A DNA stretch of 64,000 nucleotides from a bacterium (GCA_043804925.1 JAZDIP010000106.1:796-64795); one strand, 5' to 3'. Positions 1-54,659 are shown, numbered from the stretch's first letter. Notes: generated by a model not told the origin, from the sequence alone. A program made the numbers and translations.

Positions 1-302
1 AAAATAAATTTTTTGCTTTCAGGCAAAAAAAACAATATACAAAAATCGTGAGAATGATAAACAAAAATAATTTTTTAAAATTTTCCTGCTATATTTCTTT
101 AATTTTTGGAACTAAAGAAAGTGTATTTAAGGATAAAATAACTCAAAAATTATTCCAAATCCGATTATGTCCAATGCCGTATAATATACCTAAAAACTAT
201 TGTAAAACGAACATAATTATTTATTTTTGTTTAAAGAACAAATTACTATTTTAAATATAGATAAAATTTTCATAAATGCAAAAATTATGACAATAAATTA
301 AT

Positions 303-665
303 ATGGAATCTCCGGTAGATTTAAATGATAGGATAAAATACATAAGGGAGTTTTACGCTGAAACCTTGGAGGTTTTCTCCAAAAAGTTGAATACAAATAT
401 TTCCGTAATCTCAAGAATTGAAAATAAGAAAGTCTCCAAAATTGATGTTGACTTAATGATAAAAATTTGTAATACTTATCATATTAATCCAATTTGGCTC
501 TTGTTAGGTCAGGGGGACTTCATTCATGTTTTTGATTTTGTTAAACAACCACATATAGAAGAAAGGTTTACTAAAGTTTTAAAACTTTTAAATGAAATTA
601 ATAATGAAATTAATAAAATCAATCACCAATTAAATCTTACTATTTATTTTGATGAAAACAAATAA
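303..665 (+). CDS. XRE/Cro-C1-type helix-turn-helix transcriptional regulator
   Basis: 120-aa ORF. The N-terminal stretch LNDRIKYIREFYAETLEVFSKKLNTNISVISRIENKKVS fits the XRE HTH pattern (a conserved I/V-S-x-hE-xG-like turn). Confidence 0.6.
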   Translation: MESPVDLNDRIKYIREFYAETLEVFSKKLNTNISVISRIENKKVSKIDVDLMIKICNTYHINPIWLLLGQGDFIHVFDFVKQPHIEERFTKVLKLLNEINNEINKINHQLNLTIYFDENK

Positions 666-674
666 CATTTTGTT

Positions 675-702
675 CAACTTGAGTTGAAATACTTTTTAAC
701 CT
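675..702. terminator. Possible bidirectional intrinsic terminator between convergent genes
   Basis: Hairpin ttcaact-tg-agttgaa followed by a T-run (atacttttt). It sits between the stop of the + gene at 665 and the stop of gpmI at 703. Confidence 0.3.
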
Positions 703-2223
703 TTATACTAAGGCCATCCCCGTCATTTCAACAGGTTTTTCCTCACCCATTATTTTGAGTATTGTAGGAGCAACATCCGCTAAAATGCCATTATTAATTT
801 CGCTGTATTCATCGCTGACCAAAATGCAGGGAACAGGATTCATCGAATGAGCCGTATTAGGTGAACCATCCTCATTTTTTGCAAAATCGGCATTGCCATG
901 GTCGGCAATTATCATTACGGTATAATTATTTTTCTTTGCAGTTTCAACCACTTCACGAACACAATTATCTACTGCTTCCACAGCTTTCAAAATAGCCGGA
1001 TATACTCCGGTATGTCCTACCATGTCGGCATTTGCAAAATTCAAAACAATAAAGTCAAACCTCTGACTGTCCAATTCCGTCAATAAAGCATCCTTGATTT
1101 TATAAGCACTCATTTCCGGCTGAAGGTCATAAGTAGCAACATGAGGAGAATCAATCAAAATCCTTTCTTCACGTTTAAATGGGGTTTCACGACCACCGGA
1201 AAAAAAGAAAGTAACATGAGCATACTTTTCGGTTTCGGCAATGCGTAGCTGTCTCTTTTTTAAGTGGGAAAGATATTCCCCGATTGTATTCGATACATGC
1301 TCTTTGTCGTAAATAATATGAACATGTTCGAATGAATCATCATAGCGGGTAATCGTAACATAATATAGATTCATTTTTTTCATGCCGTGTTCAGGTAAGT
1401 CTTTTTGCGTTAAAGCATAAGTGATTTCCCTCAGCCGGTCTGTCCTGAAATTGAAACAGATGAAAACATCTCCTTCTTCCAGCTTAGCCAAAGGTTCTCC
1501 GTTTTCGTCAACGGCAATAATGGGTTTTATAAATTCATCGGTAATATTTTCATCATAAGAATCCTGAACTGCCTTCAAAATGTCAGAAGTAGGTTTTCCT
1601 TTACCTTTGACCAACAAGTCATAACCTTTCTTCACACGTTTCCATCGTTTATCCCTGTCCATTGAATAATATCTGCCGCTAACTGTGGCAACTTGCCCTG
1701 TGGTATTTTTAAGATGCTCGATAAGGTCCCTTAAAAATCCATAACCGCTTCTAGGGTCTGTATCCCTGCCATCCATTAAAGCATGGACAAAGACTTTCTT
1801 CAAACCGAAATCTTTTGCTATTTCGCAAAGTTTATACAAGTGAATATGTGATGAGTGGACACCGCCATCAGAAAGAAGACCGATAAAATGAACATTTTTA
1901 TCATTTTTTTTGGCATAATTGAAAGCATCGACAAGTACTTTTTTTCTCGCAAGACTGCCATCTTCAACATCCAAATTTATCTTTACAAGGTCTTGGTTGA
2001 CTACACGTCCAGAACCGATATTCAAATGCCCGACTTCGGAATTTCCCATTTGCCCTTCAGGTAAACCGACATAATTCCCATGTGCGAACAACCATGAGTG
2101 AGGATATCTTTCAAATAGAGAATCCATATATGCTGTGTTGGCATTGTATATAGCATCAGACACGGATTTATCTCCAAGACCCCAGCCATCGAGTATTATT
2201 AATAAAGCTCTTCTATTTTCCAC
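703..2223 (-). CDS. gpmI: 2,3-bisphosphoglycerate-independent phosphoglycerate mutase
   Basis: 506 aa. N-terminal LIILDGWG, metal-binding ADHGN and a serine phosphotransfer region are typical of iPGM. The apparent start is GTG. Confidence 0.9.
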   Translation of the reverse strand: MENRRALLIILDGWGLGDKSVSDAIYNANTAYMDSLFERYPHSWLFAHGNYVGLPEGQMGNSEVGHLNIGSGRVVNQDLVKINLDVEDGSLARKKVLVDAFNYAKKNDKNVHFIGLLSDGGVHSSHIHLYKLCEIAKDFGLKKVFVHALMDGRDTDPRSGYGFLRDLIEHLKNTTGQVATVSGRYYSMDRDKRWKRVKKGYDLLVKGKGKPTSDILKAVQDSYDENITDEFIKPIIAVDENGEPLAKLEEGDVFICFNFRTDRLREITYALTQKDLPEHGMKKMNLYYVTITRYDDSFEHVHIIYDKEHVSNTIGEYLSHLKKRQLRIAETEKYAHVTFFFSGGRETPFKREERILIDSPHVATYDLQPEMSAYKIKDALLTELDSQRFDFIVLNFANADMVGHTGVYPAILKAVEAVDNCVREVVETAKKNNYTVMIIADHGNADFAKNEDGSPNTAHSMNPVPCILVSDEYSEINNGILADVAPTILKIMGEEKPVEMTGMALV

Positions 2224-2506
2224 TTTGTTTTTTAATAATAATTAATTTCAATTTTATATATCAGATTATAGACGTATAAAATCATTTATCTTTTATCATT
2301 TTTTTGATGAAGAAAGTATCAGTATTAAAAAGAACCGGCATTTTTTTTAAATAAATAATAATAAGATATTAGTAAGAAATACTAAGTCTTTGTAGTACTA
2401 AATACCATTTTTCATTGTTTCGAAAAAAAGATTTGGAAATAATAAAATAATTTAATATAATTATTAAATATGTTTATACTTTTTCACACTATATGTTGGC
2501 GTTCTT

Positions 2507-3931
2507 ATGTATGTGTACGAAGAATACAAAGTAAGATTGAAGATAACTGAAGAACCTGTTCAGGAAAAAAGTAGTACCGGATGCACGTCCTGCCGTAAGA
2601 AAATCGCTCAGGATACTTTCGATATGGTAGCCGGTGGCTCTCAATATTTACCTACAAATGAACCACAACCGGGATATTTCAAAACTGTTGAGGAGTTGTG
2701 TTATCAAAAACGATCGAACATTACTACACAGCATTTGGATAATGCCATTGACCAACTCTATGGTTTCAAATTACCTGAGACTAAGCGTGTGGATGCTATT
2801 GGTGAGTTGTATGGAGAAAAAAAAGAAAAATTCTTGCACTGGAATTATTTATGTGATGATAAAGACAATAATCATAATTTTCCTAATCAATATTATCTTG
2901 AACATTTATTATTTAAATCTTTTTTAAAAATTAATAATAAAAGCATAACATTAAAATTGGTTAAGCACGGTCGTTTTTATAACAAATCAATAAATATAGA
3001 AGATTGCTTATTCGAATTTCAAAAGAAAATTTGGTGTTCAAAGAGTTATCAAGCAGCTAAAAATTGTTATAATCAATTATTAAATTGCATTAGTAATAAT
3101 ATTAATATTCAATTAATAAATTTTTATAAAGGAATGACAGATGATGATATTGAAGAAAATGAAAAAAGAATTAAAGAATGGAAAGATAATTTTCTATCTG
3201 ATTTGATTTTTGATTACGATTATGCACTAAACAATGAACCATTAGATAAACTAATAAATTTAAATGGTAACCGAGATCAAAGTTGCTTTTGTTACGGTGA
3301 AGAACCTGTTTATTGCTGTTATCCGTATGATACGAATCAAAAACCACGTCCTGAATGCTTTTGTCCTGACTATTCACTAAAAAATTTGTGTAAACCTTGT
3401 GATGAAGGAAATACTATTCCAGCAGAAATTTGGGTTGAAACTCAATATTACCCATCTATGTCCGGTCATCCTGATACAAAAGGATGCGGTGGTGTTGGCA
3501 TTAAAGGTAGCAATGAAGGGTTTCTACAATATGCAATATATAGCAGAGAAAATAAACTCTTAAAATACACATCCGATGTATTAGATATTTGGGATATGAC
3601 AGAACAGAAAAATCCTTCTGATATTAAAACTGGTGCACGAAGAAGCTTCACTATGGTACTTCCAAAAGACTACCCTGTGAGGGTTATTGTTTGGATATAT
3701 CTGCCATGTGGTTTATGTTGCAAAGGTTCACCACCACATGAGAAAAGAATAGTATTGAAAAGGGAATTTGATTTCTGGTTTAAGTACGATTATAAATATC
3801 TCGAACAGTTTAATAATTGGGCTGAAAAAGTAATAGAGCATGAAGCTGTTTACTTCAAAGAAGTTATTGGCTGCCTTGAGCTATGTCAGGATCCCTTTGA
3901 GCCACTCCCGATACCACCAAGTTATATTTAG
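2507..3931 (+). CDS. Cysteine-rich hypothetical protein (paralog 1 of a duplicated cassette), no signal peptide
   Basis: 474 aa. The first ~70 aa are about 70% identical to the ORF at 5182. It shares the Cys motifs LNGxxDxxCxCxG...P-x-YCC-x-P...CxC...LCxxC and (L/F)PCxxCC. Confidence 0.7.
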   Translation: MYVYEEYKVRLKITEEPVQEKSSTGCTSCRKKIAQDTFDMVAGGSQYLPTNEPQPGYFKTVEELCYQKRSNITTQHLDNAIDQLYGFKLPETKRVDAIGELYGEKKEKFLHWNYLCDDKDNNHNFPNQYYLEHLLFKSFLKINNKSITLKLVKHGRFYNKSINIEDCLFEFQKKIWCSKSYQAAKNCYNQLLNCISNNINIQLINFYKGMTDDDIEENEKRIKEWKDNFLSDLIFDYDYALNNEPLDKLINLNGNRDQSCFCYGEEPVYCCYPYDTNQKPRPECFCPDYSLKNLCKPCDEGNTIPAEIWVETQYYPSMSGHPDTKGCGGVGIKGSNEGFLQYAIYSRENKLLKYTSDVLDIWDMTEQKNPSDIKTGARRSFTMVLPKDYPVRVIVWIYLPCGLCCKGSPPHEKRIVLKREFDFWFKYDYKYLEQFNNWAEKVIEHEAVYFKEVIGCLELCQDPFEPLPIPPSYI

Positions 3932-3954
3932 TGATTTTTTTCTGATTTTATACA

Positions 3955-5154
3955 ATGCAAAAAGAAATGAATATGTCAAAACAAAGGTATTTTGTGATAA
4001 TCACATTTTTGTTACTATCAATTTATTCCTTTAGTAAAGCTGATCAGTTAAATTATATCGTTCAAGATTACAATGATTTAAAAGATTATGATATTATTAA
4101 TAAAAATGAATGTGTTACATCCGGTAAACATGATGTTGCTAATAATTTGCAAGAACTTGTTGTTGTCGATTCCATAAGTATTGGTAGAATACATCTTCAT
4201 GATTTGGCATGGGACGGTAAAAATTTGTGGATAATCGTGAGTTTCCCGGAAGACCCTGACTCGATATTTAAAGTAGATCCTTCAAACGGTACTGTTTTAG
4301 ATTCATTTAAAATAGATATTGATTCCATGAGATATTCCCAAGGGTTGGCATGGGACCCGGATTCCCCTGGTGGTCCCTTTTTATGGTGTTCATCAGATGC
4401 ACATTATGATAAACCTGAAGAACCGGGAGAAATAGTAAAAATAAGAATCAAGGATTTTAGTGTAGAAGATGTATTTAATAATACGGATAAACATCCGGAT
4501 GGTATTGAATGGGACGGAAATATACTATGGATCAGTGCAAATTTCAAAGATGCTATTATGACACTTAATCCTTATACGAGAGAACTTAAATCTTTGTATT
4601 CCAAGTCAGGTTGGATAGAATATGCTTATCAAATTACTATTTCTAAATATGGAAATGGAAAATCATTACTTTGGATATGTAGTGATGATTATTTTTCTGA
4701 TGTAGATACTGTTTATGTTGTCGATCCACCAACTGGAAATATAATTCAAAAATTTTTAAATTATCAACCATCTAATTCAGGAATATGCTGGGACGATGGT
4801 TCACCCGGAGGTCCATATTTGTGGGTATCTGATTGGAGAACTCATATGATTTATAAAATTCAAGCTCCTGTGATTTTTAATAATAAAGATACGATTAGAA
4901 CAACTTTTTCCATATATCCCAATCCCTTCATTCAAAAAACAACAATTCAATTCTATCTTTATCATCCCGAAAAAATAAATCTAACAATATATAATTTGCT
5001 TGGATATAAATTAGCTGTTTTAGCAGACGAATATCTGAGTGAAGGTAACCATGAATTCACATTCGACGGCTCTGCTTTAGCCAGTGGTACGTATTACTAT
5101 GTACTTCAAGCAAATGGGAAAGTAGAATCAGGTAAACTGATTTTGATTAAGTGA
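3955..5154 (+). CDS. Secreted beta-propeller-repeat protein with T9SS C-terminal sorting domain
   Basis: Signal peptide MSKQRYFVIITFLLLSIYSFSKA. There are four repeats of the (G)xAWD(G)xxLW blade motif (glutaminyl-cyclase/YVTN-like). The C-terminus ...FTFDGSALASGTYYYVLQANGKVESGKLILIK is a type IX secretion CTD. Confidence 0.75.
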   Translation: MQKEMNMSKQRYFVIITFLLLSIYSFSKADQLNYIVQDYNDLKDYDIINKNECVTSGKHDVANNLQELVVVDSISIGRIHLHDLAWDGKNLWIIVSFPEDPDSIFKVDPSNGTVLDSFKIDIDSMRYSQGLAWDPDSPGGPFLWCSSDAHYDKPEEPGEIVKIRIKDFSVEDVFNNTDKHPDGIEWDGNILWISANFKDAIMTLNPYTRELKSLYSKSGWIEYAYQITISKYGNGKSLLWICSDDYFSDVDTVYVVDPPTGNIIQKFLNYQPSNSGICWDDGSPGGPYLWVSDWRTHMIYKIQAPVIFNNKDTIRTTFSIYPNPFIQKTTIQFYLYHPEKINLTIYNLLGYKLAVLADEYLSEGNHEFTFDGSALASGTYYYVLQANGKVESGKLILIK

Positions 5155-5181
5155 ATATTGAATAGTGAAAAATGAAAAATT

Positions 5182-6615
5182 ATGACTCCATACGAAGAAT
5201 ATAAAGCAAGATTGAAAGTTACCAAAGAAGGCACTGAGAGCAAAAACAGCGGCGAATGTACACCCTGCAGATTAAAAATTGCACAGGATACTTTCAATAT
5301 GGTAACCGGTGGTTCCCAGTATTTGCCAACAAATGAACCATTGCCGGGATACTTTAAGACAGTAGAGGAGTTGTGTTATCCATACCACAACAACACTGAC
5401 AACAGGCATCTTGAAAATGCGATTGACAGGTTGTATGGGAGGAAGATGCCGGATTATAATCCGGATGATGTAATTGGGGAGTTATATGGATTTTTTCCAC
5501 ACGGAAGAATTATTGATGATTCTGACAAGCCACAAGGGATTCCAGAACAACCCAGTTCTGAAAAGTTTGGAACTGATGTGCCAATTGATCTACCTTGTTG
5601 GGAAGATGATTATATTGACCATATTTTTTGGTTTTTTAGGCGGCAGGATGTTTTTAATCTTGATTCTGAAGGAAATTTATTTTTAAAATTTCCAAATAGA
5701 ACATTATCATTAAACATTAAAGATATTACATACAAACTAATAAAAGAAATATTTTGCAGAAAAAGCAGAGAATCTACAGGATTTCTATACTGGAACTTTT
5801 TTTTAACATTAATAAAGGATTCAATTGAAAAATTTTTATTAGAAAATGCCACTTTTGATGAAGTTGAATATTATCATAAAATAATAGAAGAAGAAATAGT
5901 CGAAAAAATTTTATATGATGGCTCATTAGCACAAGGAGATGGTGCTCCCTTAATTCAGGGAATACCTGATAGATTTTTAAATCTAAATGGAATTCATGAC
6001 AGAAATTGTCTTTGTGGTGGACCTTATCCAACATATTGTTGTGAGCCTGAAAAAAATCCTGAACTTTGTTATTGTAACGGAGAGATTAGGAATTTATGTG
6101 ATTTTTGCAAAATTGATTTGCCATTACCAAGTGTCTTAAAAATTTGGAGTAAGTCTGATTCAAGCCAAGAAAAATGTGGCTATGAAATCTATAAAGAAGA
6201 AGATATTAATAGTGAAGAAATTGATAGATTATCTTCAATTACTTACCATGTATTAGGTTTAACTTCTTATGGAAGGGCATTTGGAAAATATAATTTCAAT
6301 GATTTAGAATATTGCGATGAATACAATGATCAAAGAAAGTTACCTTTAGAAGTTCCAATTGATGAAGAATGTGATATTTTATTAGTTTTAAGCTTCCCTT
6401 GTAATTGGTGTTGTAATATTAAAATATCTGAAGATCCACCAATTTGGGAGAAAACAAATCGAAGGCGAGATATACAATTTGAACTGAAAAACTTCAATTA
6501 TCAAGAATGGATAAAAAAGAATAAATATGAAAGGGAACATTTCCTAAATTTGGATATAATTTTAGATGGGGAAAGCGGTTCAGAGGAATTTACTAAAGAT
6601 TGTGTTTCTTGCTAA
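5182..6615 (+). CDS. Cysteine-rich hypothetical protein (paralog 2), no signal peptide
   Basis: 477 aa. Paralog of 2507..3931: MTPYEEYKARLKVTKEG...CTPCRLKIAQDTFNMVTGGSQYLPTNEP matches MYVYEEYKVRLKITEEP...CTSCRKKIAQDTFDMVAGGSQYLPTNEP. It has the same Cys-rich modules. Confidence 0.7.
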   Translation: MTPYEEYKARLKVTKEGTESKNSGECTPCRLKIAQDTFNMVTGGSQYLPTNEPLPGYFKTVEELCYPYHNNTDNRHLENAIDRLYGRKMPDYNPDDVIGELYGFFPHGRIIDDSDKPQGIPEQPSSEKFGTDVPIDLPCWEDDYIDHIFWFFRRQDVFNLDSEGNLFLKFPNRTLSLNIKDITYKLIKEIFCRKSRESTGFLYWNFFLTLIKDSIEKFLLENATFDEVEYYHKIIEEEIVEKILYDGSLAQGDGAPLIQGIPDRFLNLNGIHDRNCLCGGPYPTYCCEPEKNPELCYCNGEIRNLCDFCKIDLPLPSVLKIWSKSDSSQEKCGYEIYKEEDINSEEIDRLSSITYHVLGLTSYGRAFGKYNFNDLEYCDEYNDQRKLPLEVPIDEECDILLVLSFPCNWCCNIKISEDPPIWEKTNRRRDIQFELKNFNYQEWIKKNKYEREHFLNLDIILDGESGSEEFTKDCVSC

Positions 6616-6684
6616 TCTATTTGGTCAATACATTCTTCTATTAAATATTGATATTTAAATTTATTAGATATTTTTTTAAAATTT

Positions 6685-7935
6685 ATGAAAAAAATTTATT
6701 TTTTAATATTAATATTTTTTTGTCTCATTTTTTTAACTAATGAGAATTATTTGATATCTTCTACATACTGGGAAAATACTAATTTCAATTACAATATTGA
6801 AATTACATGTATAGGTATAGATAGTTCAAATCATATACGTGTAGGTTCATCAATCGGGTCATATAGTTTTTCTAATAAATGGAGAAAAGACAGAGATGAT
6901 TCATTACTAGTAAATAATATTAAAGTTTTGAGATTTGAAAACTCAGGATTATATTTATGTTATATAATATATAACAATATAATAGATGATAACAGTTTTA
7001 TTTATGAATATTTCGGAAATGGTTATCAAATATTTGGAAGGAGTTTAAAATCAATTATTACATCACTTGTAGCATATAATAAATATTATCCTTTTATTTC
7101 TGTTATTGGAGATTCAATAAAAGGAGGAGTTAATATAATGGATTTTTCTGAGGATAGTGGCTGGCGGCCTTTAAATAATGGTTTACCAGTAGAAAATGAC
7201 AGTATAAAAGCATTAGACATTATTAACAAAAACGATACATTGTTTGTTGCTCTGAGTAATGGGCTGTACTATTCAACAAATGATGGTGAGATATGGCTAC
7301 CGGTCTCATTTTTTAATGGTCTCGAAGTTGACAAATTCGTTTTGAATACAAAGAATGATTTATATTTTATAGTTTCCGGTACTGCTGAAAAAAGCGGTCT
7401 ATACAAAAACAATGTAAAAATATTCGATGATGTTTTGCCACTATCAGCAGTGGCGATCAACAGGAATGATGATGTTTTTGTTTCGTCAAGTATCAGAGGC
7501 AGGGGTGTCTTATGGACAAGCGACAATGGTACTGATTGGCAAGAAATGTACGACGGCTTGGACAGTTGCGAAATAACAGCTTTAATATGTGATTTGGATG
7601 GTTATATATATGCCGGAACAAACGGACAGGGCATTTACAAAAGCTTGAAATCCACAACAAAAGTTGACGAAATCGCCAAAGATGAATTATTCGTATCTCC
7701 CAATCCCTTCTCCGAAAAAACAAGAATTTCGTTTAATCTCGAAAATTCGGCTTATACAAAAATTATTGTTTACAATTCTCTGGGATTTGTAATTGATGTT
7801 TTAACAGATGAATATCTCAGCGAAGGACTGCACGAATTTACATTCGACGGCTCTGCTTTAGCCAGCGGGACGTATTATTACGTTTTGCAGGCAGACGGAA
7901 AAGTAGAAACAGGGAAGCTGGTTTTGATTAAGTGA
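6685..7935 (+). CDS. BNR/Asp-box repeat protein with T9SS C-terminal sorting domain
   Basis: Signal peptide. Asp-box-like motifs YYSTNDGEIW and LWTSDNGTDW. The C-terminal 45 aa are near-identical to the CTD of 3955..5154, at the DNA level as well. Confidence 0.75.
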   Translation: MKKIYFLILIFFCLIFLTNENYLISSTYWENTNFNYNIEITCIGIDSSNHIRVGSSIGSYSFSNKWRKDRDDSLLVNNIKVLRFENSGLYLCYIIYNNIIDDNSFIYEYFGNGYQIFGRSLKSIITSLVAYNKYYPFISVIGDSIKGGVNIMDFSEDSGWRPLNNGLPVENDSIKALDIINKNDTLFVALSNGLYYSTNDGEIWLPVSFFNGLEVDKFVLNTKNDLYFIVSGTAEKSGLYKNNVKIFDDVLPLSAVAINRNDDVFVSSSIRGRGVLWTSDNGTDWQEMYDGLDSCEITALICDLDGYIYAGTNGQGIYKSLKSTTKVDEIAKDELFVSPNPFSEKTRISFNLENSAYTKIIVYNSLGFVIDVLTDEYLSEGLHEFTFDGSALASGTYYYVLQADGKVETGKLVLIK

Positions 7936-8032
7936 AAAACGAATAGTGAAAAATGAAAAAGTCGGGAGAAGGGAAAAGGAGCGGGGACTTTAGAAAATAG
8001 ATGATTGAAATAGATTCCTGCATTCGCAGGAA

Positions 8033-8195
8033 AGACAGTGTTTTAATTTTTTTCGTAGGAATGACAGCGTTTTAAATTTTTTCGCAGGAATGACAGTGTT
8101 TTTATTTTTTTCGCTGGAATGACAGCGTTTTAAATTTTTTCGCAGGAATGACAACTTCTTATATAACAATCGCAGGAATGGCATAAACCTTCTGT
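8033..8195. repeat. Tandem repeat, ~30-bp unit TTCGCAGGAATGACAGCGTTTTAAATTTT x ~5.5, followed by an inverted partial copy (gtcattctgac)
   Basis: Directly visible head-to-tail copies with no unique spacers. It lies in a convergent intergenic region. Confidence 0.8.
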
Positions 8196-8270
8196 CTTTC
8201 TGTGTTTCCGCTTTTCGGTCATTCTGACTTAAGATTTCTCTTTAAATCAATTTTCAGATAATGTAAAAAT

Positions 8271-9230
8271 TTAAATCTGAGATTTCAAAAGCTGATTGAA
8301 TTTTTCTGCTATTGCTTTGGCTTCATTTTTTGTCGAGAATACTGCTCCGTTGAACATCCAATAATGGTCTCCATTTACGTGTTTTGTCATCAAAATCCAC
8401 TGTTTTTTCCTGAATACAACAGGCATGCTCGGTTCGACCAGCCACATTGGGTTTCCTTTGACACTGTCATTTTTCATAAAGACGACTTCTTCGATATAAT
8501 TGGCATCCGGTTGAAAACCTGCAACAGATTTCTTTCGTTTCACCCAAAGCGTGTTTGTTGTCCAGTCAATTCCGCATTTAATCTTCGTTTTAGCCAAAGT
8601 TCTCCATGGGAAAAAAGTGAGAAAACAAATGACAGAAATGAGAAACATAATAGGTGCCATATCAGCATCACGCTTTTCACCCAATATTATCAACCCTATA
8701 AAAGCAAAAAATCCGCCGACTGCAAAGGGTGCTGTATGTGATGCCTCCAGCCATCCTCTGCTTCGCCAGACTGTCTGTTCAAATTGTGGGGATTTTTCGG
8801 ATGTGTCAATCAATTCCTCTTTGATATTATCGATATCTGTTGGCAAAACATGCCGTTTTCTTATTGGGAATGTCCCCTGTGAAGCAAAGTATTCAGCACG
8901 GATTTCCCGTTTGTCAAAAGTAATTTCCTTCCTTGCGATTTTCAATACTTCATCATTTGTTATTTCTTTGCCTGTTTCGGAATATTTAATAGAATTGTTT
9001 TCAATGAAGAAAGCTTCGACATCTTCTCTTCCATATCTGATAACAAAACTAGGAGGACACAAATCCCCTGAAGAATAATCGAGATTATCCCTTATTCCTT
9101 TTAGCTTTTCCAATAATTCCAAAGTTTTATAATCTGATAAATTTTCAAAGTCAATAGTATCAAAACTTCCGCTTGCAGTTGTCAGGTTTTCGTCTATTCC
9201 CTGTACCGATAATGTAAAATACTTTGCCAT
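8271..9230 (-). CDS. Hypothetical membrane protein (two central TM helices)
   Basis: 319-aa ORF with ATG start preceded by AGGAG. It has hydrophobic segments APFAVGGFFAFIGLIILG and IMFLISVICFLTFFPW. No recognisable catalytic motifs. Confidence 0.55.
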   Translation of the reverse strand: MAKYFTLSVQGIDENLTTASGSFDTIDFENLSDYKTLELLEKLKGIRDNLDYSSGDLCPPSFVIRYGREDVEAFFIENNSIKYSETGKEITNDEVLKIARKEITFDKREIRAEYFASQGTFPIRKRHVLPTDIDNIKEELIDTSEKSPQFEQTVWRSRGWLEASHTAPFAVGGFFAFIGLIILGEKRDADMAPIMFLISVICFLTFFPWRTLAKTKIKCGIDWTTNTLWVKRKKSVAGFQPDANYIEEVVFMKNDSVKGNPMWLVEPSMPVVFRKKQWILMTKHVNGDHYWMFNGAVFSTKNEAKAIAEKFNQLLKSQI

Positions 9231-9407
9231 TGTTTTCTCCTTTCATTTTAATAGATATTAAAAGAACTTTGCAATTTAATAATTTTCTGGTTCCATTTAA
9301 AATATTTTAAAATAATAATGGCTTAAATACAAAAATTCAATTTCTTATTGCATTATTATCCCGATTTAGTTAATTTAAAAAATTAGATTATGATAAATGG
9401 AGGTGTA

Positions 9408-10763
9408 ATGAAAAAAAATATATTAATATTGTCTGCAATAACCATTCTTGTTACTGTGAGTTTAACAAGTTTTCCTGAAAACAGCGACCCTCGTTTCGGA
9501 AAATACAAATACGAAGATTTCCAAACACCCGAGTACTGCGGTGCTTCCTGCCATGTAGATTTTTACCGTCAATGGAAACAATCAATGATGTCTCAGGCGT
9601 ACATTCATCATTGGGACGAAATTGAGTATTTCGAACTTGCTGTTCCACATGCAGAAAAAGACCCAAAGGTTGCTGAAGTTAAGGATGGATGCAATGGATG
9701 TCATGCTCCTATGGCTTATCTTGCAGGAAACACACCTCCCCCAAGACCTGAAAAAGGAGACAGAGCAAACGAAGCTGTTGCATGTGATATTTGTCACAGT
9801 ATAACCGGATTTGAAGGGGATATTCCTTACAATTTCAATTATATAATGAAACCCGGAAAAGATAAATTCAGTTCACGAGGCGGCGGCAATCAATCTCCTA
9901 ATCACAACATTGTTGTAAGCGATTTGCATCGTAGCGGAGATTTTTGCGGTATTTGTCACAATGAAAAAAGTCCGTTTGGGATTTGGGTTAAATCAACACA
10001 TCTCGAATGGAAGGAAGGACCATATTATAAAGAAGGCGTTCAATGTCAGGATTGTCACATGCCAAAAGGAAAAAGCTATACGGCTTCTATGGGTAAACTC
10101 TACGATAATTCCAGACAGCATTTGTTTCACGGTGCGCATGACCCGGGAAAAGTAAAAGGGACAATCGAACTTAGAATTCATCCTGATATTATTGAAGCAG
10201 AACCCGGTGAACCTGTTAAGTTTACAATTGCATTATTCAACCAGAAAACCGGACATAAGTTCCCGACCGGTTCAGTTGAAGACAGAATTGTTTGGATGCA
10301 TGTAGAAGCGACAGATGCTAAGGGTAATAAATATCATTTAAAAGTTGATAAAAAAGGATTCGATGGAGAGGAATACACTATTGCTTCTGATGTTCTTGCT
10401 TATCAGGATATGGGTATTGCTAAAAACATTCCTGATTTCAAAGGAGTCCAGCGTGACGGAATACCAATAGGTGACAGAATTTTCCGTATGCCGTACTTTG
10501 ATCCACAGGGCAGGATGACGATACAGCAATGGAATACTTCAAAACTTGGAGTTGATTACAGAATTGGACCAAAGGAAACTAAAATAGAAACATGCACTTT
10601 TACATTACCGAATGATGTTGCTCCCGGAAAAATGAAAGTAACAGCAGTTTTGAATTATCAGAAGCTGATTAAACCTGTTGCTGATTTTCTCAATGTACCT
10701 GACGATGAGGAAGAAATTATTAAAGTAAATGAGCATAGTACTGAGGTTATTATATTGGAATAG
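9408..10763 (+). CDS. Periplasmic multiheme c-type cytochrome (5 CxxCH)
   Basis: Signal peptide MKKNILILSAITILVTVSL. Five CxxCH motifs: CGASCH, CNGCH, CDICH, CGICH, CQDCH. The ATG at 9408 is preceded by GGAGG. Confidence 0.85.
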   Translation: MKKNILILSAITILVTVSLTSFPENSDPRFGKYKYEDFQTPEYCGASCHVDFYRQWKQSMMSQAYIHHWDEIEYFELAVPHAEKDPKVAEVKDGCNGCHAPMAYLAGNTPPPRPEKGDRANEAVACDICHSITGFEGDIPYNFNYIMKPGKDKFSSRGGGNQSPNHNIVVSDLHRSGDFCGICHNEKSPFGIWVKSTHLEWKEGPYYKEGVQCQDCHMPKGKSYTASMGKLYDNSRQHLFHGAHDPGKVKGTIELRIHPDIIEAEPGEPVKFTIALFNQKTGHKFPTGSVEDRIVWMHVEATDAKGNKYHLKVDKKGFDGEEYTIASDVLAYQDMGIAKNIPDFKGVQRDGIPIGDRIFRMPYFDPQGRMTIQQWNTSKLGVDYRIGPKETKIETCTFTLPNDVAPGKMKVTAVLNYQKLIKPVADFLNVPDDEEEIIKVNEHSTEVIILE

Positions 10764-10819
10764 TAAAGCAAGTTTGAAAGAAATATTAAGTTAATAAATA
10801 AATTTCAAGGGGAGTTATT

Positions 10820-12028
10820 ATGAAAAAAATTTTTACACTAATTATTACATTTGTATTATTAGCAATGCTGATGAGTGAAACCTTGCAGGCAATTCCGGCA
10901 TTCGCAAGAAAGTACAACATGTCTTGCCAGACCTGTCATTCACCGGCACCAAGACTTAAGGCATATGGCGATGATTTTGCCGGGAACGGGTTTCGGCTTT
11001 CTGATAAAGATGCACCACGATATACTGTCGAAACAGGTGATGCCGATTTATCATTAATACGAGACTTCCCAATTGCCGCACGATTTGATGCTCATGCAAC
11101 ATATAATAATGCTAATCAGGAGAACAGTGATTTTGGTGTACCCTACATTTTAAAGCTTTTGAGTGGTGGAGAAATTGCCAAAGACTTTGCATATTACTTT
11201 TATTTTTATTTAAGTGAAAGAGGAGAGTTGGTAGGTGTTGAAGATTGCTATATAATGTTCAATGACCTTTTTAATATTGACCTGGATTTATATTTTGGTC
11301 AGTTTCAGGTTTCCGACCCGCTTTTCAAAAGGGAACTGAGATTAACGCTTGAAGATTATCAGCCATATAAAATGAAGCCGGATTTTTCAAAAATGAATCT
11401 CGCTTATGACAGAGGGATAATGCTGACATACGGGATGGATTGGGGAACGGATGTTATTCTCGAAGTTGTGAACGGATGCGGTTTACCCAAAGCTGATGCG
11501 AACAAACTTTTTGATATTGACGGACACAAAACATTAGTCGGTAGGGTATCTCAAGATATAGGAGATTTCTTAAGAATCGGCGGGTTTTTCCTGACCGGAA
11601 AAGAAGATATGGACAACATTATTTCCGACTATGTTACTAACAATGTTCAATCATATGGACCGGATATGACTTTGTCGTTCGGGGAAATGATTGAATTAAA
11701 TCTCCAATATGTTATGAGAAATGATAATTTTGTTTTTTCCACTACTGACTCAGTAGGAACCACTCAGTGGGTAGTTGATTTAAATACGAAGGGTGCAATG
11801 GCTGAATTAATCTTTACTCCACAGGGAGACCAAAGCAAATGGTATGCCGCTTCGGTTTTCAATTGGATTGAATCTGATGACAAATCTTTAAATTACAAAA
11901 CGGCAACATTGCATTTTGGATATTTACTGAAAAGAAATTTGAGGCTGGCTTTGGAAGGAACATATAATTTCTCAGATGCCGACGATCCATATACTCAGTT
12001 CAGTCTGGGAATTGTAACAGCTTTTTAA
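10820..12028 (+). CDS. Cyc2-like fused monoheme cytochrome-porin (outer-membrane beta-barrel with an N-terminal CxxCH)
   Basis: Signal peptide. There is a single CQTCH about 15 aa after the predicted cleavage site, the length is about 400 aa, and the C-terminus ends ...GIVTAF (an aromatic OMP terminus). RBS AAGGGGAG. The assignment to the Cyc2 family rests on architecture only. Confidence 0.6.
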   Translation: MKKIFTLIITFVLLAMLMSETLQAIPAFARKYNMSCQTCHSPAPRLKAYGDDFAGNGFRLSDKDAPRYTVETGDADLSLIRDFPIAARFDAHATYNNANQENSDFGVPYILKLLSGGEIAKDFAYYFYFYLSERGELVGVEDCYIMFNDLFNIDLDLYFGQFQVSDPLFKRELRLTLEDYQPYKMKPDFSKMNLAYDRGIMLTYGMDWGTDVILEVVNGCGLPKADANKLFDIDGHKTLVGRVSQDIGDFLRIGGFFLTGKEDMDNIISDYVTNNVQSYGPDMTLSFGEMIELNLQYVMRNDNFVFSTTDSVGTTQWVVDLNTKGAMAELIFTPQGDQSKWYAASVFNWIESDDKSLNYKTATLHFGYLLKRNLRLALEGTYNFSDADDPYTQFSLGIVTAF

Positions 12029-22721: not shown

Positions 22722-23630
22722 ATGGAAAAAATGAAAAATATGATTGTTGAAAGAAAATATTTGCCAGCCTTAAGTAAGCTCTTTTCGGCAATTGTGATGA
22801 ATAGTATTGAACAAAAAGGAACTTCTAAATATATGATAGAAGTTTGTAAAAATAGTGGAATGGATAAGTATCTTGATCCTTCAATAAAGATATCTCAAGT
22901 GTTTGATCTTGTTTATAACTTAATCATTAAAGATTATAGAAATGAGTATATATATAAAAATATTATTGTTCAAAAATTACTTCTTGGTAAACACTCGCTT
23001 AATACAACACAACTATTGACAGAGTTTAGAATAGGAAAAAATAAAGCAGATGTAATATTATTAAACGGTACTTCCTATGTTTACGAAATTAAATCCGAGT
23101 ATGACTCCTTAAAACGGTTGGAAATTCAATTGCGTTCTTATTTAGATGCTTTTGATTTTATAAATGTTATTACATATCCATCCTTAGTTAACAAGATTCT
23201 ACCAGTTATTTCAGATAAAATTGGTGTTTTAGTTTTGACGAATAAAAATACCATATCAACAATTCGCCGACCAAAATCAAATAGAAAAAATATTAATCCT
23301 TTGGTTTTATTTGATTCTCTTAGAAAAGACGAATATTTAAATATAATCAATAAATATTATAGATATATTCCAGATGTACCAAATACAAAAATAAATAAAT
23401 ACTGTAAAGAATTATTTTCAAAAATACCTCCAAATGAAGCACATGATTTGGTTATTAATGTATTAAAAGAAAGAAATCATTCAAATATACTCAAAGAATT
23501 TATCAACAAAGCACCTAAATCTACTTTTGCCTATGCTTTAAGTATTGGTGATAAAAAAAAGAAGTTAGAAAGACTTATTGAGATATTTGATTCAAAGATT
23601 GAGTATAAGAGTTTTTCAAAAGTAAATTAG
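22722..23630 (+). CDS. PD-(D/E)xK-type nuclease-fold protein, sce7726-like (recalled from memory)
   Basis: 302 aa. A candidate catalytic core ADVILLNGTSYVYEIKSE (D ... E-x-K). The coding sequence is AT-rich compared with its neighbours. Confidence 0.55.
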   Translation: MEKMKNMIVERKYLPALSKLFSAIVMNSIEQKGTSKYMIEVCKNSGMDKYLDPSIKISQVFDLVYNLIIKDYRNEYIYKNIIVQKLLLGKHSLNTTQLLTEFRIGKNKADVILLNGTSYVYEIKSEYDSLKRLEIQLRSYLDAFDFINVITYPSLVNKILPVISDKIGVLVLTNKNTISTIRRPKSNRKNINPLVLFDSLRKDEYLNIINKYYRYIPDVPNTKINKYCKELFSKIPPNEAHDLVINVLKERNHSNILKEFINKAPKSTFAYALSIGDKKKKLERLIEIFDSKIEYKSFSKVN

Positions 23631-23640
23631 AGGTTAAAAT

Positions 23641-24579
23641 ATGTATTATCCATATTTAAGGGGAAAACAATTTGAATTAATTTTACTGAGAGATAACGCC
23701 GAATTTATTTCAAAGAATAATATATATCCGATTATAGAACCAGTGAAAACTGATTATAATGCACTACTGCGTGCTATAAAAATATTAAATGAAAATAACG
23801 TAGATTTTGTTTTAGTTGTTAATCCACAAGTTGGTGAAAAACCTATTGATTTTAAAAATTTTTTACAAACTCTTGAATCAGGGAATTTTCTAAAAAACTC
23901 AAAATTATCAATAGGATATATTCTCAATTCAAAATCAAAAATAAAAGAGATTGAATTTCTATTTAACAAATATATACATAACAGTTTTTCAATCATTCAT
24001 TATGGAAGTTCATTTGATAAAGAAATAATAAATATTTTAAAAGAACAAAAAAACATTAATAGACATATTTTTATTGATGGTTTTGCTGGAAAATTATATC
24101 AAAGACAATTCAAGGGTGATGGAATAGCCAGAGCTTTAATTAGAAATGGGTTTAAAGCAAAAAAGAAAAATTCAGATTACCCCTATAATGAGCATTTCTC
24201 TGATTTACATGTTACATATGACGATGAAGGAATGGAAGGATTTGGAGATTTTTTAATCGTTGGAGATGATTATTCAGAAACAGGGGGACCAGCTTATGCA
24301 GTTGCTATTCATTTAACATATATTGATAATGAAGATATGTTTATTTATCATTTTATCTCTGATAGAACTGACTCCCCAACTGATCCTGGAGGTAAATTTT
24401 TTGAAGCACTAGAAAAACTTGTCTCAGAGGTAAATAAACCAAATTCACTTATTTTTAGGTCAAAAGCTTGCCATGAATATTTGAATCTATTTAAAAGAAA
24501 GCATTATCCTGGACTTGGATTTATTAAAAAATTGTCAATGCAACATCATATCGAACTAATGGCTGATTTTTTAAAATAA
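23641..24579 (+). CDS. sce7725-like hypothetical protein (recalled from memory), partner of the upstream gene
   Basis: 312 aa. The N-terminus MYYPYLRGKQFELILLRDN resembles the sce7725 family start. It starts 10 bp after the previous stop, with a GAGGT RBS. Confidence 0.5.
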   Translation: MYYPYLRGKQFELILLRDNAEFISKNNIYPIIEPVKTDYNALLRAIKILNENNVDFVLVVNPQVGEKPIDFKNFLQTLESGNFLKNSKLSIGYILNSKSKIKEIEFLFNKYIHNSFSIIHYGSSFDKEIINILKEQKNINRHIFIDGFAGKLYQRQFKGDGIARALIRNGFKAKKKNSDYPYNEHFSDLHVTYDDEGMEGFGDFLIVGDDYSETGGPAYAVAIHLTYIDNEDMFIYHFISDRTDSPTDPGGKFFEALEKLVSEVNKPNSLIFRSKACHEYLNLFKRKHYPGLGFIKKLSMQHHIELMADFLK

Positions 24580-24592
24580 AAGAAATAATATT

Positions 24593-40499: not shown

Positions 40500-40627
40500 A
40501 ACAACACCTTTTTTAAGAATTGCAACAATCTTTATTATAAGACACAAAAAATACCGAAATGTTACACTTTTTTTTGAAAATAAATAAAATAAATTTTCTT
40601 TCATCCAAAAAAACCTCATTTTCATTA

Positions 40628-54034: not shown

Positions 54035-54140
54035 GTTTCAAATATATTACTCTTTTAATTATTTATCAATTAATTAACGAATGATAATATCAATAATTAT
54101 TCATAATTCGTAATTCATAATTAGTAATTAGTAATTGTTT

Positions 54141-54357: not shown

Positions 54358-54659
54358 AAACAACCTGATAATGATTAAATACTTACATAATACAAAAATA
54401 GGAAATAATTATCTTTGTTTAAATATAATTAACCACAAATATTTGAAGTGTAAAAGTGTAAAAGGGATTAGGGTAATTTTTACGGTTACAGTATCTGATT
54501 TATTCGTAGAGTTTGCATTGAACTTTTTTTTGAATAAATAACAAAGAGCATTATATCTGATTATTATATTTAAAATCAATAATTCATAATAATTATAACA
54601 ATTTTTTTTGTAAATTGTTTTTAAAAATATTGTTAACACAAAACAGTCATGTTAAATAT

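What the first reader, a model, noticed from the sequence alone, without database searches (positions are those of the whole stretch)
2507..7935. Tandemly duplicated two-gene cassette: novel Cys-rich cytoplasmic protein + T9SS-secreted beta-propeller
Genes 2507..3931 and 5182..6615 are paralogs. Their N-terminal 70 aa are about 70% identical, and they share Cys modules. Each is followed by a secreted repeat protein with a T9SS CTD. The two CTDs, plus about 25 bp past the stop codon (TGAATAGTGAAAAATGAAAAA), are near-identical at the DNA level while the rest has diverged. That indicates segmental duplication with gene conversion, or a very recent duplication of the 3' end. The Cys-rich proteins lack signal peptides and match no family that I recognise.
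Basis: seen in the sequence. Interest (0 to 1): 0.6.

Follow-up and report, generated by a model that had tools for sequence, protein, structure and literature searches.

The report
Novel Cys-rich proteins paired with T9SS propellers
Four co-oriented genes alternate between a very rare, uncharacterised cysteine-rich protein with no export signal and a beta-propeller exported by the type IX secretion system; the pairing recurs in related uncultured bacteria, but the duplication is ancient, not recent.

Summary
CysA (2507-3931) and CysB (5182-6615) are paralogs: 32% identity overall (E 2e-54) and 70% over the first 70 aa. Each is followed by a protein with a Sec signal and a T9SS type-A CTD. The "recent duplication / gene conversion" reading fails. 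Synonymous sites are saturated (dS about 1.0 in the CTD, about 1.5 in the Cys N-terminus). The two propeller bodies are unrelated even by profile comparison: PropA has a glutaminyl-cyclase-like five-bladed fold, and PropB looks BNR/Sortilin-like.

The Cys-rich family is extremely rare: 5 proteins among 5.8 billion, and 24 representatives among 1.84 billion. It matches nothing in Pfam, NCBIfam, PHROGs, PADLOC or PDB. It has no signal peptide or TM helix. It is modular: a conserved N-terminal region of about 100 aa, a helical domain plus Cys-knot core, and a swappable C-terminal domain.

A T9SS propeller gene follows the Cys gene in all six complete pairs seen (two in the window, four in other loci). 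A seventh locus holds a decayed remnant in the same arrangement. The reverse does not hold, because the propellers also occur alone.

My best guess (about 0.35) is a polymorphic effector-plus-cognate-partner module linked to T9SS. The function remains unproven.

The parts
2392..2506 (+). Conserved upstream region of CysA, probably the promoter and 5' leader of the four-gene unit
   Evidence: About 82-85% identical to the region upstream of the homologous gene in L003, from a different sample. Synonymous sites in the adjacent coding sequence differ at pS 0.78. A sigma-70-like match, TTGGAA-17-TATAAT, lies at 2433-2461.
2507..3931 (+). CysA: 474 aa, 22 Cys, no signal peptide. Member of the new Cys-rich family, with a GCx3C-type C-terminal tail.
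   Evidence: No family hits.
3955..5154 (+). PropA: 399 aa. Sec signal-like N-terminus, five-bladed beta-propeller with a glutaminyl-cyclase-like fold, and a T9SS type-A CTD encoded at 4912-5151.
   Evidence: PF18962 37.7 bits and TIGR04183 41.7 bits. AF2 pLDDT 75 with about 20 strands over residues 69-303. Best Foldseek match 2iwa, E 1.5e-9, TMt 0.72. Hydrophobic N-terminus.
5160..5179 (+). 20-nt A/G-rich element between the PropA stop and the CysB start (copy 1)
   Evidence: Identical to 7941-7960, and these are the only exact copies in the window. Part of a 14-nt imperfect tandem repeat that overlaps the stop codon.
5182..6615 (+). CysB: 477 aa, 21 Cys, no signal peptide. Typical family member with a terminal CxxC.
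   Evidence: AF2 pLDDT 70: residues 1-140 disordered, helical domain 144-260, Cys knot about 270-310, beta-sandwich 310-440. No fold match at E<=0.001.
6685..7935 (+). PropB: 416 aa. Sec signal-like N-terminus, BNR/Sortilin-Vps10-like propeller, and a T9SS type-A CTD encoded at 7693-7932.
   Evidence: PF18962 31.9 bits and TIGR04183 33.7 bits. PF15902 hit is weak, E 0.005. Homologs carry precomputed PF15902, PF02012 and PF15899. 65% identical to the gene downstream of the Cys gene in L001.
7941..7960 (+). 20-nt A/G-rich element after the PropB stop (copy 2). No Cys gene follows it.

Best explanation
What is shown (confidence about 0.9):
- The locus is probably one operon of two old, strongly diverged modules.
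- Each module pairs a member of a new, very rare Cys-framework protein family with a T9SS-exported beta-propeller.
- The Cys-rich protein has no Sec, Tat or lipoprotein signal. It has a conserved N-terminal region of about 100 aa, a helical domain, a 9-Cys knot (SCxCGGxxPTxCCxP...CxC...NLCxxC) and a variable C-terminal domain.

What is inferred:
- The modules behave like polymorphic cassettes. The constant parts are the N-terminal region of the Cys protein and the CTD of the propeller, both of which are trafficking or recognition parts.
- The variable centre is the C-terminal domain of the Cys protein plus the propeller body. These two change together as a cognate pair.
- I propose that the Cys protein is a fast-evolving effector or ligand with a fixed Cys framework. 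Its conserved N-terminal region would direct a Sec-independent export or processing step.
- The T9SS-displayed propeller would be its dedicated partner at the cell surface or in the periplasm, acting as binder, neutraliser or carrier.
For: Association:
- The Cys gene is followed within 20-70 nt by a T9SS CTD propeller gene in the window (twice), L001, L004, L005 (partner cut by the contig end, so its CTD is not seen) and L009.
- L002 shows a PropA-like gene followed by a Cys gene.
- L019 keeps a remnant of a Cys C-terminus directly upstream of a PropB-like gene.
- Only about 10% of the window's ORFs of at least 150 aa carry a CTD.
- The association holds across three different propeller types: QC-like, BNR-like and Reg_prop.

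Polymorphic pattern:
- CysA and CysB are 74% identical over residues 1-66 and 22-28% elsewhere.
- In GCA_964509335, two paralogs share a 5' stretch of 850 nt at 91% identity, then carry unrelated C-terminal domains and different downstream propellers. The CTDs flanking the Cys gene there are 91% identical.
- Family members carry alternative C-terminal domains, and some consist of the leader plus beta-sandwich only.
- Orphan C-terminal fragments exist (P0018; L019).

Co-variation of the Cys C-terminal type with the propeller type:
- CxxC-tailed beta-sandwich with PropB-like: 4 of 4.
- CysA-type tail with PropA.
- Alternative alpha/beta domain with Reg_prop.

Fast evolution on a fixed Cys framework:
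- Between the window and L001, dN is 0.75 for the Cys body and 0.32 for the neighbouring PropB ortholog.
- About 20 Cys columns stay conserved.
- Cys columns 411 and 450 are lost together as a pair, which is what a disulfide would predict.

Precedent: TANFOR polymorphic toxins of Bacteroidetes are encoded next to T9SS substrates (PMC7073777).
Against: - No export route is known for a protein without a signal peptide in these bacteria.
- There is no PCAT, T6SS or eCIS gene in the 64-kb window or in the flanks of L004 and L009.
- No known toxin domain was detected in any of the 24 family members.
- Beta-propellers have not been found among polymorphic-toxin immunity proteins (PMC3482391, section 'Immunity proteins').
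- The four CxxC-type motifs could equally be cytoplasmic Zn sites.
- PropA and PropB homologs exist without any Cys gene (L018, L020), so the propellers do not need the Cys protein.
- All evidence is genomic, from about 7 related loci that are not independent.
- The AF2 model rests on a 24-sequence alignment, and its coordinates could not be inspected.
Confidence: 0.35

Rival explanations
1. The Cys-rich protein stays in the cytoplasm as a multi-zinc or Fe-S protein. It serves its cognate propeller from the inside, for example as a dedicated pre-export chaperone or targeting factor that keeps a fast-folding propeller Sec-competent, or as a regulator of the operon.
For: - No signal peptide or TM segment in any of the 24 members.
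- There are four CxxC-type motifs, including one at each end of the protein, and regularly spaced CxC/CC/CxC/CxxC motifs that could form Zn knuckles.
- Tight operon linkage, and co-variation with the propeller type.
Against: - Close PropA and PropB homologs are encoded without it.
- The body evolves more than twice as fast as the propeller, which is unusual for a chaperone.
- Cys positions are lost in pairs rather than in sets of four.
- Adjacent CC motifs and about 20 conserved Cys are more typical of disulfide frameworks.
- Swapping of C-terminal domains among paralogs is not expected of a housekeeping accessory protein.
Confidence: 0.25
2. The pair forms a non-antagonistic extracellular or surface complex, for example an adhesin or surface-layer component. 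It would vary under phage or grazer pressure, with the Cys protein released by a non-classical route or by lysis.
For: It shares the same synteny and variability data as the best explanation. The propellers carry type-A CTDs, which usually lead to surface attachment or secretion. No toxin domain was detected.
Against: It has the same export problem. The C-terminal swapping with orphan fragments is more typical of conflict systems. There is no direct evidence for a complex.
Confidence: 0.15
3. One reading: a recent tandem duplication of a two-gene cassette, with the CTD and 3' flank homogenised by gene conversion.
For: - Direct repeats at 2505-2705 / 5180-5380 and at 4906-5179 / 7687-7960.
- A 20/20-nt identical stretch after both stop codons.
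- In another genome (L004/L005), the equivalent segments really are 91% identical at the DNA level.
Against: - In the window, dS is about 1.0-1.7 in exactly the segments said to be converted.
- The propeller bodies show no homology, even profile to profile.
- The same CTD subtype is equally conserved in other genomes.
- The PropA-then-Cys and Cys-then-PropB junctions are both seen with distant homologs.
Confidence: 0.04
4. The adjacency is inherited synteny without any functional coupling. The Cys-rich gene would be an unrelated fast-evolving orphan that happens to sit beside T9SS cargo genes, which are abundant in these genomes.
For: T9SS cargo genes make up about 10% of the larger ORFs here. 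All loci come from a narrow group of related uncultured bacteria.
Against: - The adjacency persists at 24-35% identity between the Cys proteins and with three unrelated propeller types.
- Intergenic distances are 23-69 nt on the same strand.
- The C-terminal domain and the propeller are swapped together.
- The remnant in L019 sits at the same position.
Confidence: 0.1

Closest known systems
TANFOR-domain polymorphic toxins of Bacteroidetes (Jana, Salomon and Bosis 2020, PMC7073777)
   Same: A conserved N-terminal domain with variable C-terminal domains. The genes are encoded next to T9SS substrates that carry a CTD. The same broad lineage (FCB group).
   Different: No TANFOR domain (TIGR02542) was found in CysA or CysB at E<=1. 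According to that paper, most TANFOR proteins have a signal peptide, whereas the Cys family has none. TANFOR proteins carry recognisable toxin domains and small immunity genes; here there is no known toxin domain, and the downstream gene is a T9SS propeller.
Polymorphic toxin systems in general (Zhang et al. 2012, PMC3482391)
   Same: A constant N-terminal part. C-terminal domain replacement between paralogs, with a sharp breakpoint. The partner gene lies immediately downstream and changes together with the C-terminal domain. Orphan C-terminal fragments are present.
   Different: There is no known trafficking domain, no known toxin domain, and no repeats (RHS or filamentous). The partner is a secreted beta-propeller, a fold that the paper says has not been found among immunity proteins.
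T9SS type-A CTD cargo proteins (TIGR04183 / PF18962)
   Same: PropA and PropB have a signal-like N-terminus and a C-terminal CTD above the curated thresholds.
   Different: Nothing unusual in the cargo proteins themselves. Their CTDs form a rare, strongly conserved subtype, 55-72% identical in only about 9 other clusters. This subtype is only 25-30% identical to the other CTDs in the window.
Plant/bacterial-type glutaminyl cyclotransferase, a five-bladed beta-propeller (PDB 2iwa; PF05096)
   Same: The PropA model's best structural match: E 1.5e-9, TM 0.72 relative to the target. A distant homolog, P0041, carries a precomputed PF05096 hit.
   Different: PropA itself has no PF05096 hit at E<=1. 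Sequence identity to 2iwa is 15%. Catalytic residues were not examined. The match is at fold level only.
Venom-peptide gene superfamilies such as conotoxins (analogy from general knowledge, not tested)
   Same: A strongly conserved N-terminal pre/pro region, followed by a hypervariable mature part that keeps a fixed Cys framework.
   Different: Those are small eukaryotic Sec-secreted peptides. Here the proteins are about 470 aa, bacterial, and have no signal peptide.
T9SS cargo plus cognate accessory gene pairs, such as SprB/SprF and type-B CTD proteins with PorP/SprF-like partners (general knowledge)
   Same: A cargo gene and a cargo-specific partner gene are encoded side by side and diversify together.
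   Different: Those partners are outer-membrane beta-barrels with signal peptides, and they serve type-B CTDs. The Cys proteins are soluble and signal-less, and the cargos here have type-A CTDs.

Membership tests
T9SS type-A CTD cargo (PropA, PropB) | C-terminal sorting domain matching TIGR04183 / PF18962 above the curated cut-off, located at the extreme C-terminus | tested here: met
   PF18962 scores 37.7 and 31.9 bits (cut-off 27). TIGR04183 scores 41.7 and 33.7 bits (cut-off 23). The matches cover residues 320-396 of 399 and 338-413 of 416.
T9SS type-A CTD cargo (PropA, PropB) | N-terminal Sec signal peptide for the first export step | tested here: met
   The maximum Kyte-Doolittle score (12-aa window) in the first 40 aa is 2.66 and 3.53, against below 0 for CysA and CysB. 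AF2 places a helix at residues 7-24 of PropA. No dedicated signal-peptide predictor was available.
T9SS type-A CTD cargo (PropA, PropB) | T9SS machinery present in the same genome | not testable with these tools
   Only 64 kb of the genome is available. Three further CTD proteins in the window make a T9SS likely.
Glutaminyl cyclotransferase PF05096 (PropA) | Five-bladed beta-propeller fold like papaya QC | tested here: met
   Foldseek match to 2iwa: E 1.5e-9, TMt 0.72, rmsd 4.5 over 268 columns.
Glutaminyl cyclotransferase PF05096 (PropA) | Sequence match to the family profile | tested here: not met
   No PF05096 hit at E<=1. Only a distant homolog, P0041, carries it.
Glutaminyl cyclotransferase PF05096 (PropA) | Catalytic residues conserved | not tested
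   No residue-level superposition was available.
BNR / Sortilin-Vps10-type propeller (PropB) | Profile match above the gathering score | tested here: inconclusive
   PF15902 gives E 0.0052 and 16.1 bits against a cut-off of 33. Homologs P0032, P0033 and P0036 carry precomputed PF15902, PF02012 or PF15899. No structure was predicted for PropB.
Polymorphic toxin system (CysA/CysB plus partner) | Conserved N-terminal part with C-terminal domains replaced between paralogs | tested here: met
   In the window, 74% identity over residues 1-66 and 22% over 301-474. In L004/L005, 91% nt identity over 850 nt, followed by unrelated C-termini.
Polymorphic toxin system (CysA/CysB plus partner) | Recognised toxin domain at the C-terminus | tested here: not met
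   No Pfam hit at E<=0.1 that is shared by the family members. No PDB sequence or fold match.
Polymorphic toxin system (CysA/CysB plus partner) | Recognised trafficking domain or secretion-system marker (PAAR, VgrG, TPS, LXG, TANFOR and similar) | tested here: not met
   No Pfam or NCBIfam hit, TIGR02542 included. No secretion-system genes other than T9SS cargos in the window.
Polymorphic toxin system (CysA/CysB plus partner) | Cognate immunity gene immediately downstream | tested here: inconclusive
   A partner gene is always immediately downstream and co-varies with the C-terminal type. However, it is a T9SS-exported propeller, which is not a known immunity fold (PMC3482391). Protection was not tested.
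Double-glycine leader / PCAT substrate (CysA/CysB N-terminus) | Leader helix ending in GG, with hydrophobic residues at -4, -7 and -12 | tested here: inconclusive
   CysA, CysB, P0002, P0004 and P0009 have ...KIAQDTFxMVxGG|S, with V/F/I at -4/-7/-12, and AF2 places a helix at residues 29-42. The GG is not kept in P0005, P0007, P0010 or the L009 protein.
Double-glycine leader / PCAT substrate (CysA/CysB N-terminus) | C39-peptidase ABC exporter encoded nearby | tested here: not met
   None in the window or in the L004 and L009 flanks. The rest of the genome was not available.
Anti-phage defence systems (PADLOC) and phage protein families (PHROGs) | Profile match | tested here: not met
   No PADLOC hit at E<=1. 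The only PHROG hits are sub-significant, with the best at E 0.013. No tblastn match in phage or plasmid records.

The most novel reading that the evidence does not exclude
The conserved, apparently disordered N-terminal region of about 100 aa (GCxSCRxKIAQxTFxM..GGSxYLPTNEP...LYGRKMPxY repeats) is a previously unknown trafficking signal. It would take a Sec-independent, disulfide-framework effector out of the cell. There the effector would pair with a cognate beta-propeller displayed by T9SS. That would make this a new class of T9SS-linked polymorphic effector/partner system, with a propeller acting as receptor, carrier or immunity protein.
Probability: 0.15. Interest if true: 0.8.

Novelty: new variant of a known kind. 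Interest (0 to 1): 0.5.

Why it matters
T9SS is understood as a two-step, Sec-dependent pathway whose cargos are recognised by their CTD. It is an open question whether T9SS takes part in interbacterial conflict, and whether proteins without a CTD or signal peptide can be functionally tied to it. The question was raised for TANFOR toxins (PMC7073777).

This locus offers a compact and testable case. A signal-less, Cys-framework protein family with no known fold is strictly coupled to T9SS propeller cargos, and its variable domain is exchanged together with the propeller. If the two proteins bind each other, the system would give three things:
- a new trafficking signal;
- a new Cys-rich fold;
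- the first propeller-type cognate partner in a polymorphic system.

If the Cys protein turns out to be a cytoplasmic zinc protein, it would instead point to a cargo-specific step before export.

The family is confined to a few uncultured FCB-group bacteria, which limits its immediate reach.

Tried and rejected
1. Recent duplication or gene conversion: rejected by Nei-Gojobori counts, with dS about 1.0-1.7.
2. Common origin of the two propeller bodies: BLASTP and hhalign align only the CTD.
3. The Cys protein's C-terminal beta-sandwich as a cryptic T9SS CTD: hhalign probability 0.07.
4. Further paralogs in the window, including the equally long ORF at 62544-63968: none found.
5. Known families: Pfam, NCBIfam, PHROGs and PADLOC on the window proteins, and Pfam on all 24 members, gave nothing. 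The PDB sequence profile search gave 0 hits at E<=10.
7. Phage or plasmid origin: no tblastn hits. One viral-contig pattern match, L017, was a chance hit.
8. Read-through fusion of PropA to CysB: same frame in the window, but a second in-frame TGA intervenes, and the L002 spacer of 13 nt is out of frame.
9. Phospholipase-A2-like or Wnt/lipocone-like helical Cys domain, prompted by CCxxHD in P0025 and by PMC12419801: the HD is absent from the window proteins and from most members, and no profile was available for a test. The idea was dropped.
10. RNA element: no Rfam match in 1-12000 at E<=0.1.
11. More loci: the genome-contig scan found only the ChocPot contig again. The first metagenome scan found nothing. 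A degenerate Cys-knot DNA pattern found L009 and the fragment L016; the other 8 loci showed no tblastn similarity to the family.
12. P0015, a eukaryote-like repeat protein, is treated as a short-motif false positive.

Full report
**The observation**

The window holds four co-oriented ORFs exactly as described: CysA 2507-3931, PropA 3955-5154, CysB 5182-6615 and PropB 6685-7935. The gaps between them are 23, 27 and 69 nt.

CysA and CysB are clear paralogs: BLASTP gives 152/472 identical residues, E 2e-54. Similarity is very uneven along the proteins:

| Residues | Identity |
|---|---|
| 1-66 | 74% |
| 1-70 | 70.0% |
| 105-255 | 28% |
| 256-300 (Cys-dense stretch) | 38% |
| 301-474 | 22% |

The two proteins have 22 and 21 Cys, and 15 of these align, including CxxC, CxC, CC, CxC, CxxC and CxxCC motifs. 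Neither has a hydrophobic N-terminus or a TM-like segment. In-frame stops lie 14 and 3 codons upstream of the start codons, so no hidden signal peptide is possible.

PropA and PropB both have strongly hydrophobic N-termini. Both carry a C-terminal T9SS type-A sorting domain above the curated thresholds.

**Where the description is overstated**

The two CTD-coding segments are 74% identical over 274 nt. They are about 81% identical over the last 45 codons. That is not near-identical.

Only the 20 nt GAATAGTGAAAAATGAAAAA, starting 5 nt after each stop codon, are identical. They occur nowhere else in the window. They are part of a 14-nt imperfect tandem repeat that overlaps the stop codon.

Outside the CTD, PropA and PropB share nothing detectable, either by BLASTP or by profile-profile comparison of their two families.

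**Age of the duplication**

Nei-Gojobori counts between the window's own copies show saturated synonymous sites in the very segments said to be homogenised:

| Segment | pS | dS | dN |
|---|---|---|---|
| Last 45 CTD codons | 0.57 | 1.08 | 0.077 |
| First 66 Cys codons | 0.65 | 1.52 | 0.19 |

The same CTD subtype (...EYLSxGxHEFTFDGSALASGTYYYVLQAxGKVETGKLVLIK) is equally conserved in orthologs from other genomes, again with dS about 1. The similarity is therefore maintained by purifying selection on the protein. It does not come from recent duplication or conversion.

Both junction types are also old. A PropA-like gene followed by a Cys gene occurs in L002, with a Cys protein only 24-28% identical to the window's. 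A Cys gene followed by a PropB-like gene occurs in L001 and L009.

Concerted evolution does happen in this system elsewhere. In assembly GCA_964509335, two Cys paralogs share 850 nt at 91% identity, and the CTDs flanking one of them are 91% identical.

**The Cys-rich family**

The family is extremely rare:
- The word-indexed search of 5.77 billion clusters found 5 proteins, two of which are the window's own.
- An exhaustive HMM search of 1.84 billion representatives found 24 at E<=0.001. One of these, P0015, is a probable short-motif false positive.

None of the members has a Pfam hit shared by the family. CysA and CysB also have no NCBIfam, PHROG or PADLOC match and no PDB sequence match.

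An AF2 model of CysB, built on a 24-sequence alignment, has mean pLDDT 70 and shows four regions:
- residues 1-140 at low confidence, with short helices;
- a helical domain at 144-260;
- a compact Cys-dense region at about 270-310;
- a beta-sandwich at 310-440.

Foldseek found no match at E<=0.001 in PDB or BFVD. The only weak matches were generic Ig-like sandwiches.

The family alignment shows a modular build:
- an N-terminal region with GCxxC and, in the close relatives, KIAQDTFxMVxGGSQYLPTNEPLPGYFKTVEELCY followed by 2-3 LYGRKMPxY repeats;
- a helical-plus-knot core with the signature SCxCGGxxPTxCCxP...CxC...NLCxxC;
- alternative C-terminal domains: a beta-sandwich with CxxCC and a terminal CxxC; an unrelated alpha/beta domain in P0009 and P0014; or a short Cys tail in P0016, P0022 and P0025.

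P0021 and P0023 consist of the leader plus the sandwich only.

**The propellers**

The PropA model (pLDDT 75) has about 20 strands over residues 69-303, followed by the CTD sandwich. Its best PDB match is papaya glutaminyl cyclotransferase, a five-bladed propeller (2iwa; E 1.5e-9, TM 0.72 relative to the target). PropA does not match the PF05096 profile itself, so I claim only the fold.

PropB has weak Sortilin-Vps10/BNR-type matches, and its homologs carry those domains.

**Synteny elsewhere**

| Locus | Arrangement |
|---|---|
| L001 (ChocPot_Mid MAG) | 124-aa ORF, Cys gene, PropB ortholog (65% identical) |
| L009 (48.7-kb contig) | same small ORF, Cys gene, PropB-like, among housekeeping genes |
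| L005 | small ORF, Cys gene, PropB-like (cut by contig end) |
| L004 | CTD protein, Cys gene (alternative C-terminal domain), Reg_prop propeller with CTD |
| L002 | PropA-like with CTD, then Cys gene |
| L019 | remnant of a Cys C-terminus fused to a CTD fragment, directly upstream of a PropB-like gene |

By contrast, the closest PropA homolog (52% identity, L018) and another PropB-like gene (L020) have no Cys gene nearby. The link is one-directional: the Cys family has only been seen beside T9SS propeller cargo, while the propellers also occur alone.

About 10% of the window's larger ORFs carry a CTD. Repeated adjacency across three propeller types is therefore unlikely to be chance. The loci are related by descent, however, and are not independent.

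**Interpretation**

Several features fit a polymorphic-cassette layout:
- The constant parts are the Cys N-terminus and the propeller's CTD.
- The variable centre is the Cys C-terminal domain plus the propeller body.
- The variable parts change together. The CxxC-tailed sandwich goes with PropB-like in 4 of 4 cases. The CysA-type tail goes with PropA. The alternative domain goes with Reg_prop.
- In L004/L005 the breakpoint lies right after the Cys knot.

The Cys body evolves more than twice as fast as the neighbouring propeller. Between the window and L001, dN is 0.75 for the Cys body and 0.32 for PropB. About 20 Cys columns nevertheless stay fixed. Columns 411 and 450 are lost together in CysB, P0004 and P0007 and in P0016 and P0019, while neighbouring Cys remain. 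That behaviour fits a disulfide pair better than a four-ligand metal site.

My best-supported model, at about 0.35, is as follows. The Cys protein is a fast-evolving effector or ligand with a conserved N-terminal trafficking or processing region. The T9SS-displayed propeller is its cognate partner.

What is shown: the gene structure, the paralogy, the rarity, the modularity, the synteny, and the old age of the duplication.

What is inferred: export of the Cys protein, disulfide bonding, and physical pairing with the propeller.

**Main weaknesses**

- No export route is evident.
- No PCAT, T6SS or eCIS genes lie in the window or in the longer flanks.
- No toxin domain was detected.
- Propellers are not known as immunity proteins (PMC3482391).
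- The CxxC motifs could be cytoplasmic Zn sites.

The main rival, at about 0.25, is a cytoplasmic metal-binding accessory protein for the cognate cargo.

**Comparison with what is known**

The closest described situation is the TANFOR class of Bacteroidetes polymorphic toxins. Their genes are enriched next to T9SS substrates, and their link to T9SS is still a hypothesis (PMC7073777). The Cys family is not a TANFOR member. It lacks the signal peptide that most TANFOR proteins have, and it lacks any known toxin domain.

PropA and PropB are ordinary members of the T9SS type-A cargo class.

The Cys family itself is new at both the sequence level and, as far as the available libraries show, the fold level.

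**Regulatory notes**

About 115 nt upstream of CysA are roughly 82-85% identical to the region upstream of the homolog in L003, although synonymous sites there differ at pS 0.78. A sigma-70-like match sits at 2433-2461. This points to a conserved promoter or leader.

The consensus scan reports no terminator-like site in any of the three intergenic gaps. Its few weak stem-loops lie inside the coding sequences. Terminator-like hairpins lie in the 29-nt repeat array downstream of PropB. The four genes are therefore probably one operon.

**Verdict**

The evolutionary interpretation (recent duplication or gene conversion) is wrong for this window. The functional reading remains open.

The locus is a genuine and very rare gene pairing of moderate interest. 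It is worth an experimental look, mainly for what it could reveal about T9SS-linked conflict or cargo-specific accessory functions.

Noticed in passing
window 8023-8183: A 29-nt tandem repeat with 5-6 copies and the core TTCGCAGGAATGACA. It lies in the gap between the convergent genes PropB and ORF 8271-9230(-). It is unique in the window and absent from all 20 fetched loci. It contains terminator-like hairpins, and its function is unknown.
   Followed up: partly
window 5160-5179 and 7941-7960: An identical 20-nt A/G-rich element lies just after both propeller stop codons, even though nearby synonymous sites are saturated. Upstream of CysB it is the translation-initiation region. After PropB nothing follows it. 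Purine-rich spacers of a similar kind precede the Cys genes in L002 and L004.
   Followed up: partly
window 5060-5085 and 7841-7866; L001 about 3038-3063: A 26-nt patch within the CTD coding sequence, ACATTCGACGGCTCTGCTTTAGCCAG. It is identical in PropA and PropB and 25/26 identical in the ChocPot ortholog, and it includes G+C-rich synonymous codons in an AT-rich genome where dS is about 1. It could be chance, codon preference or a nucleotide-level constraint.
   Followed up: partly
L001 53-427; L005 3-212; L009 just upstream of 9740 (minus strand): A conserved small ORF of about 124 aa lies directly upstream of the Cys gene in three loci. It has no Pfam hit and no signal peptide, and it ends ...FEMRCxILNADIV. 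It is absent from the window by tblastn. It may be a third component.
   Followed up: partly
L019 7590-7997: A decayed remnant. The last 70 aa or so of a Cys-family protein (CNWCC...FLEKYF...) run into a T9SS CTD-like fragment, directly upstream of a PropB-like gene and next to ftsH.
   Followed up: partly
L004 331-1181 vs L005 204-1051; L004 66-308 vs about 2885-3127: In assembly GCA_964509335, two Cys paralogs share 850 nt at 91% identity, then carry unrelated C-terminal domains. The CTDs on either side of one of them are 91% identical.
   Followed up: yes
window 22722-25609: A RES-domain protein with a HEPN/RES N-terminal domain (24593-25609) follows two ORFs that have no Pfam hit. The stretch is low in G+C (0.27-0.29). 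It may be a toxin or defence islet.
   Followed up: no
window 54000-58901: A T4-type terminase large subunit (57393-58901) lies beside a stretch of G+C 0.24 and several ORFs without Pfam hits. It is probably a prophage remnant.
   Followed up: no
window 26323-29991, 37965-40625, 59266-60228: Three further T9SS type-A CTD proteins: a 1222-aa CarboxypepD_reg repeat protein, a DUF3160 protein and a 320-aa protein. For the first two, tblastn found CTDs only about 25-30% identical to those of PropA and PropB; the third gave no tblastn match to them.
   Followed up: partly
window 9390-12028: A multihaem c-type cytochrome (9390-10763) is followed by a 402-aa signal-bearing protein that has a CxxCH motif near its N-terminus. 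A NrfA-like cytochrome also lies near the Cys locus in L004. This is probably coincidence.
   Followed up: no
protein P0015 (representative library): A 1557-aa eukaryote-like Cys-rich repeat protein matches the short N-terminal motif PGYFKTVEELC 13 times (CPEPLYFDTVEKICK). I treated it as a short-motif coincidence and did not test it further.
   Followed up: no
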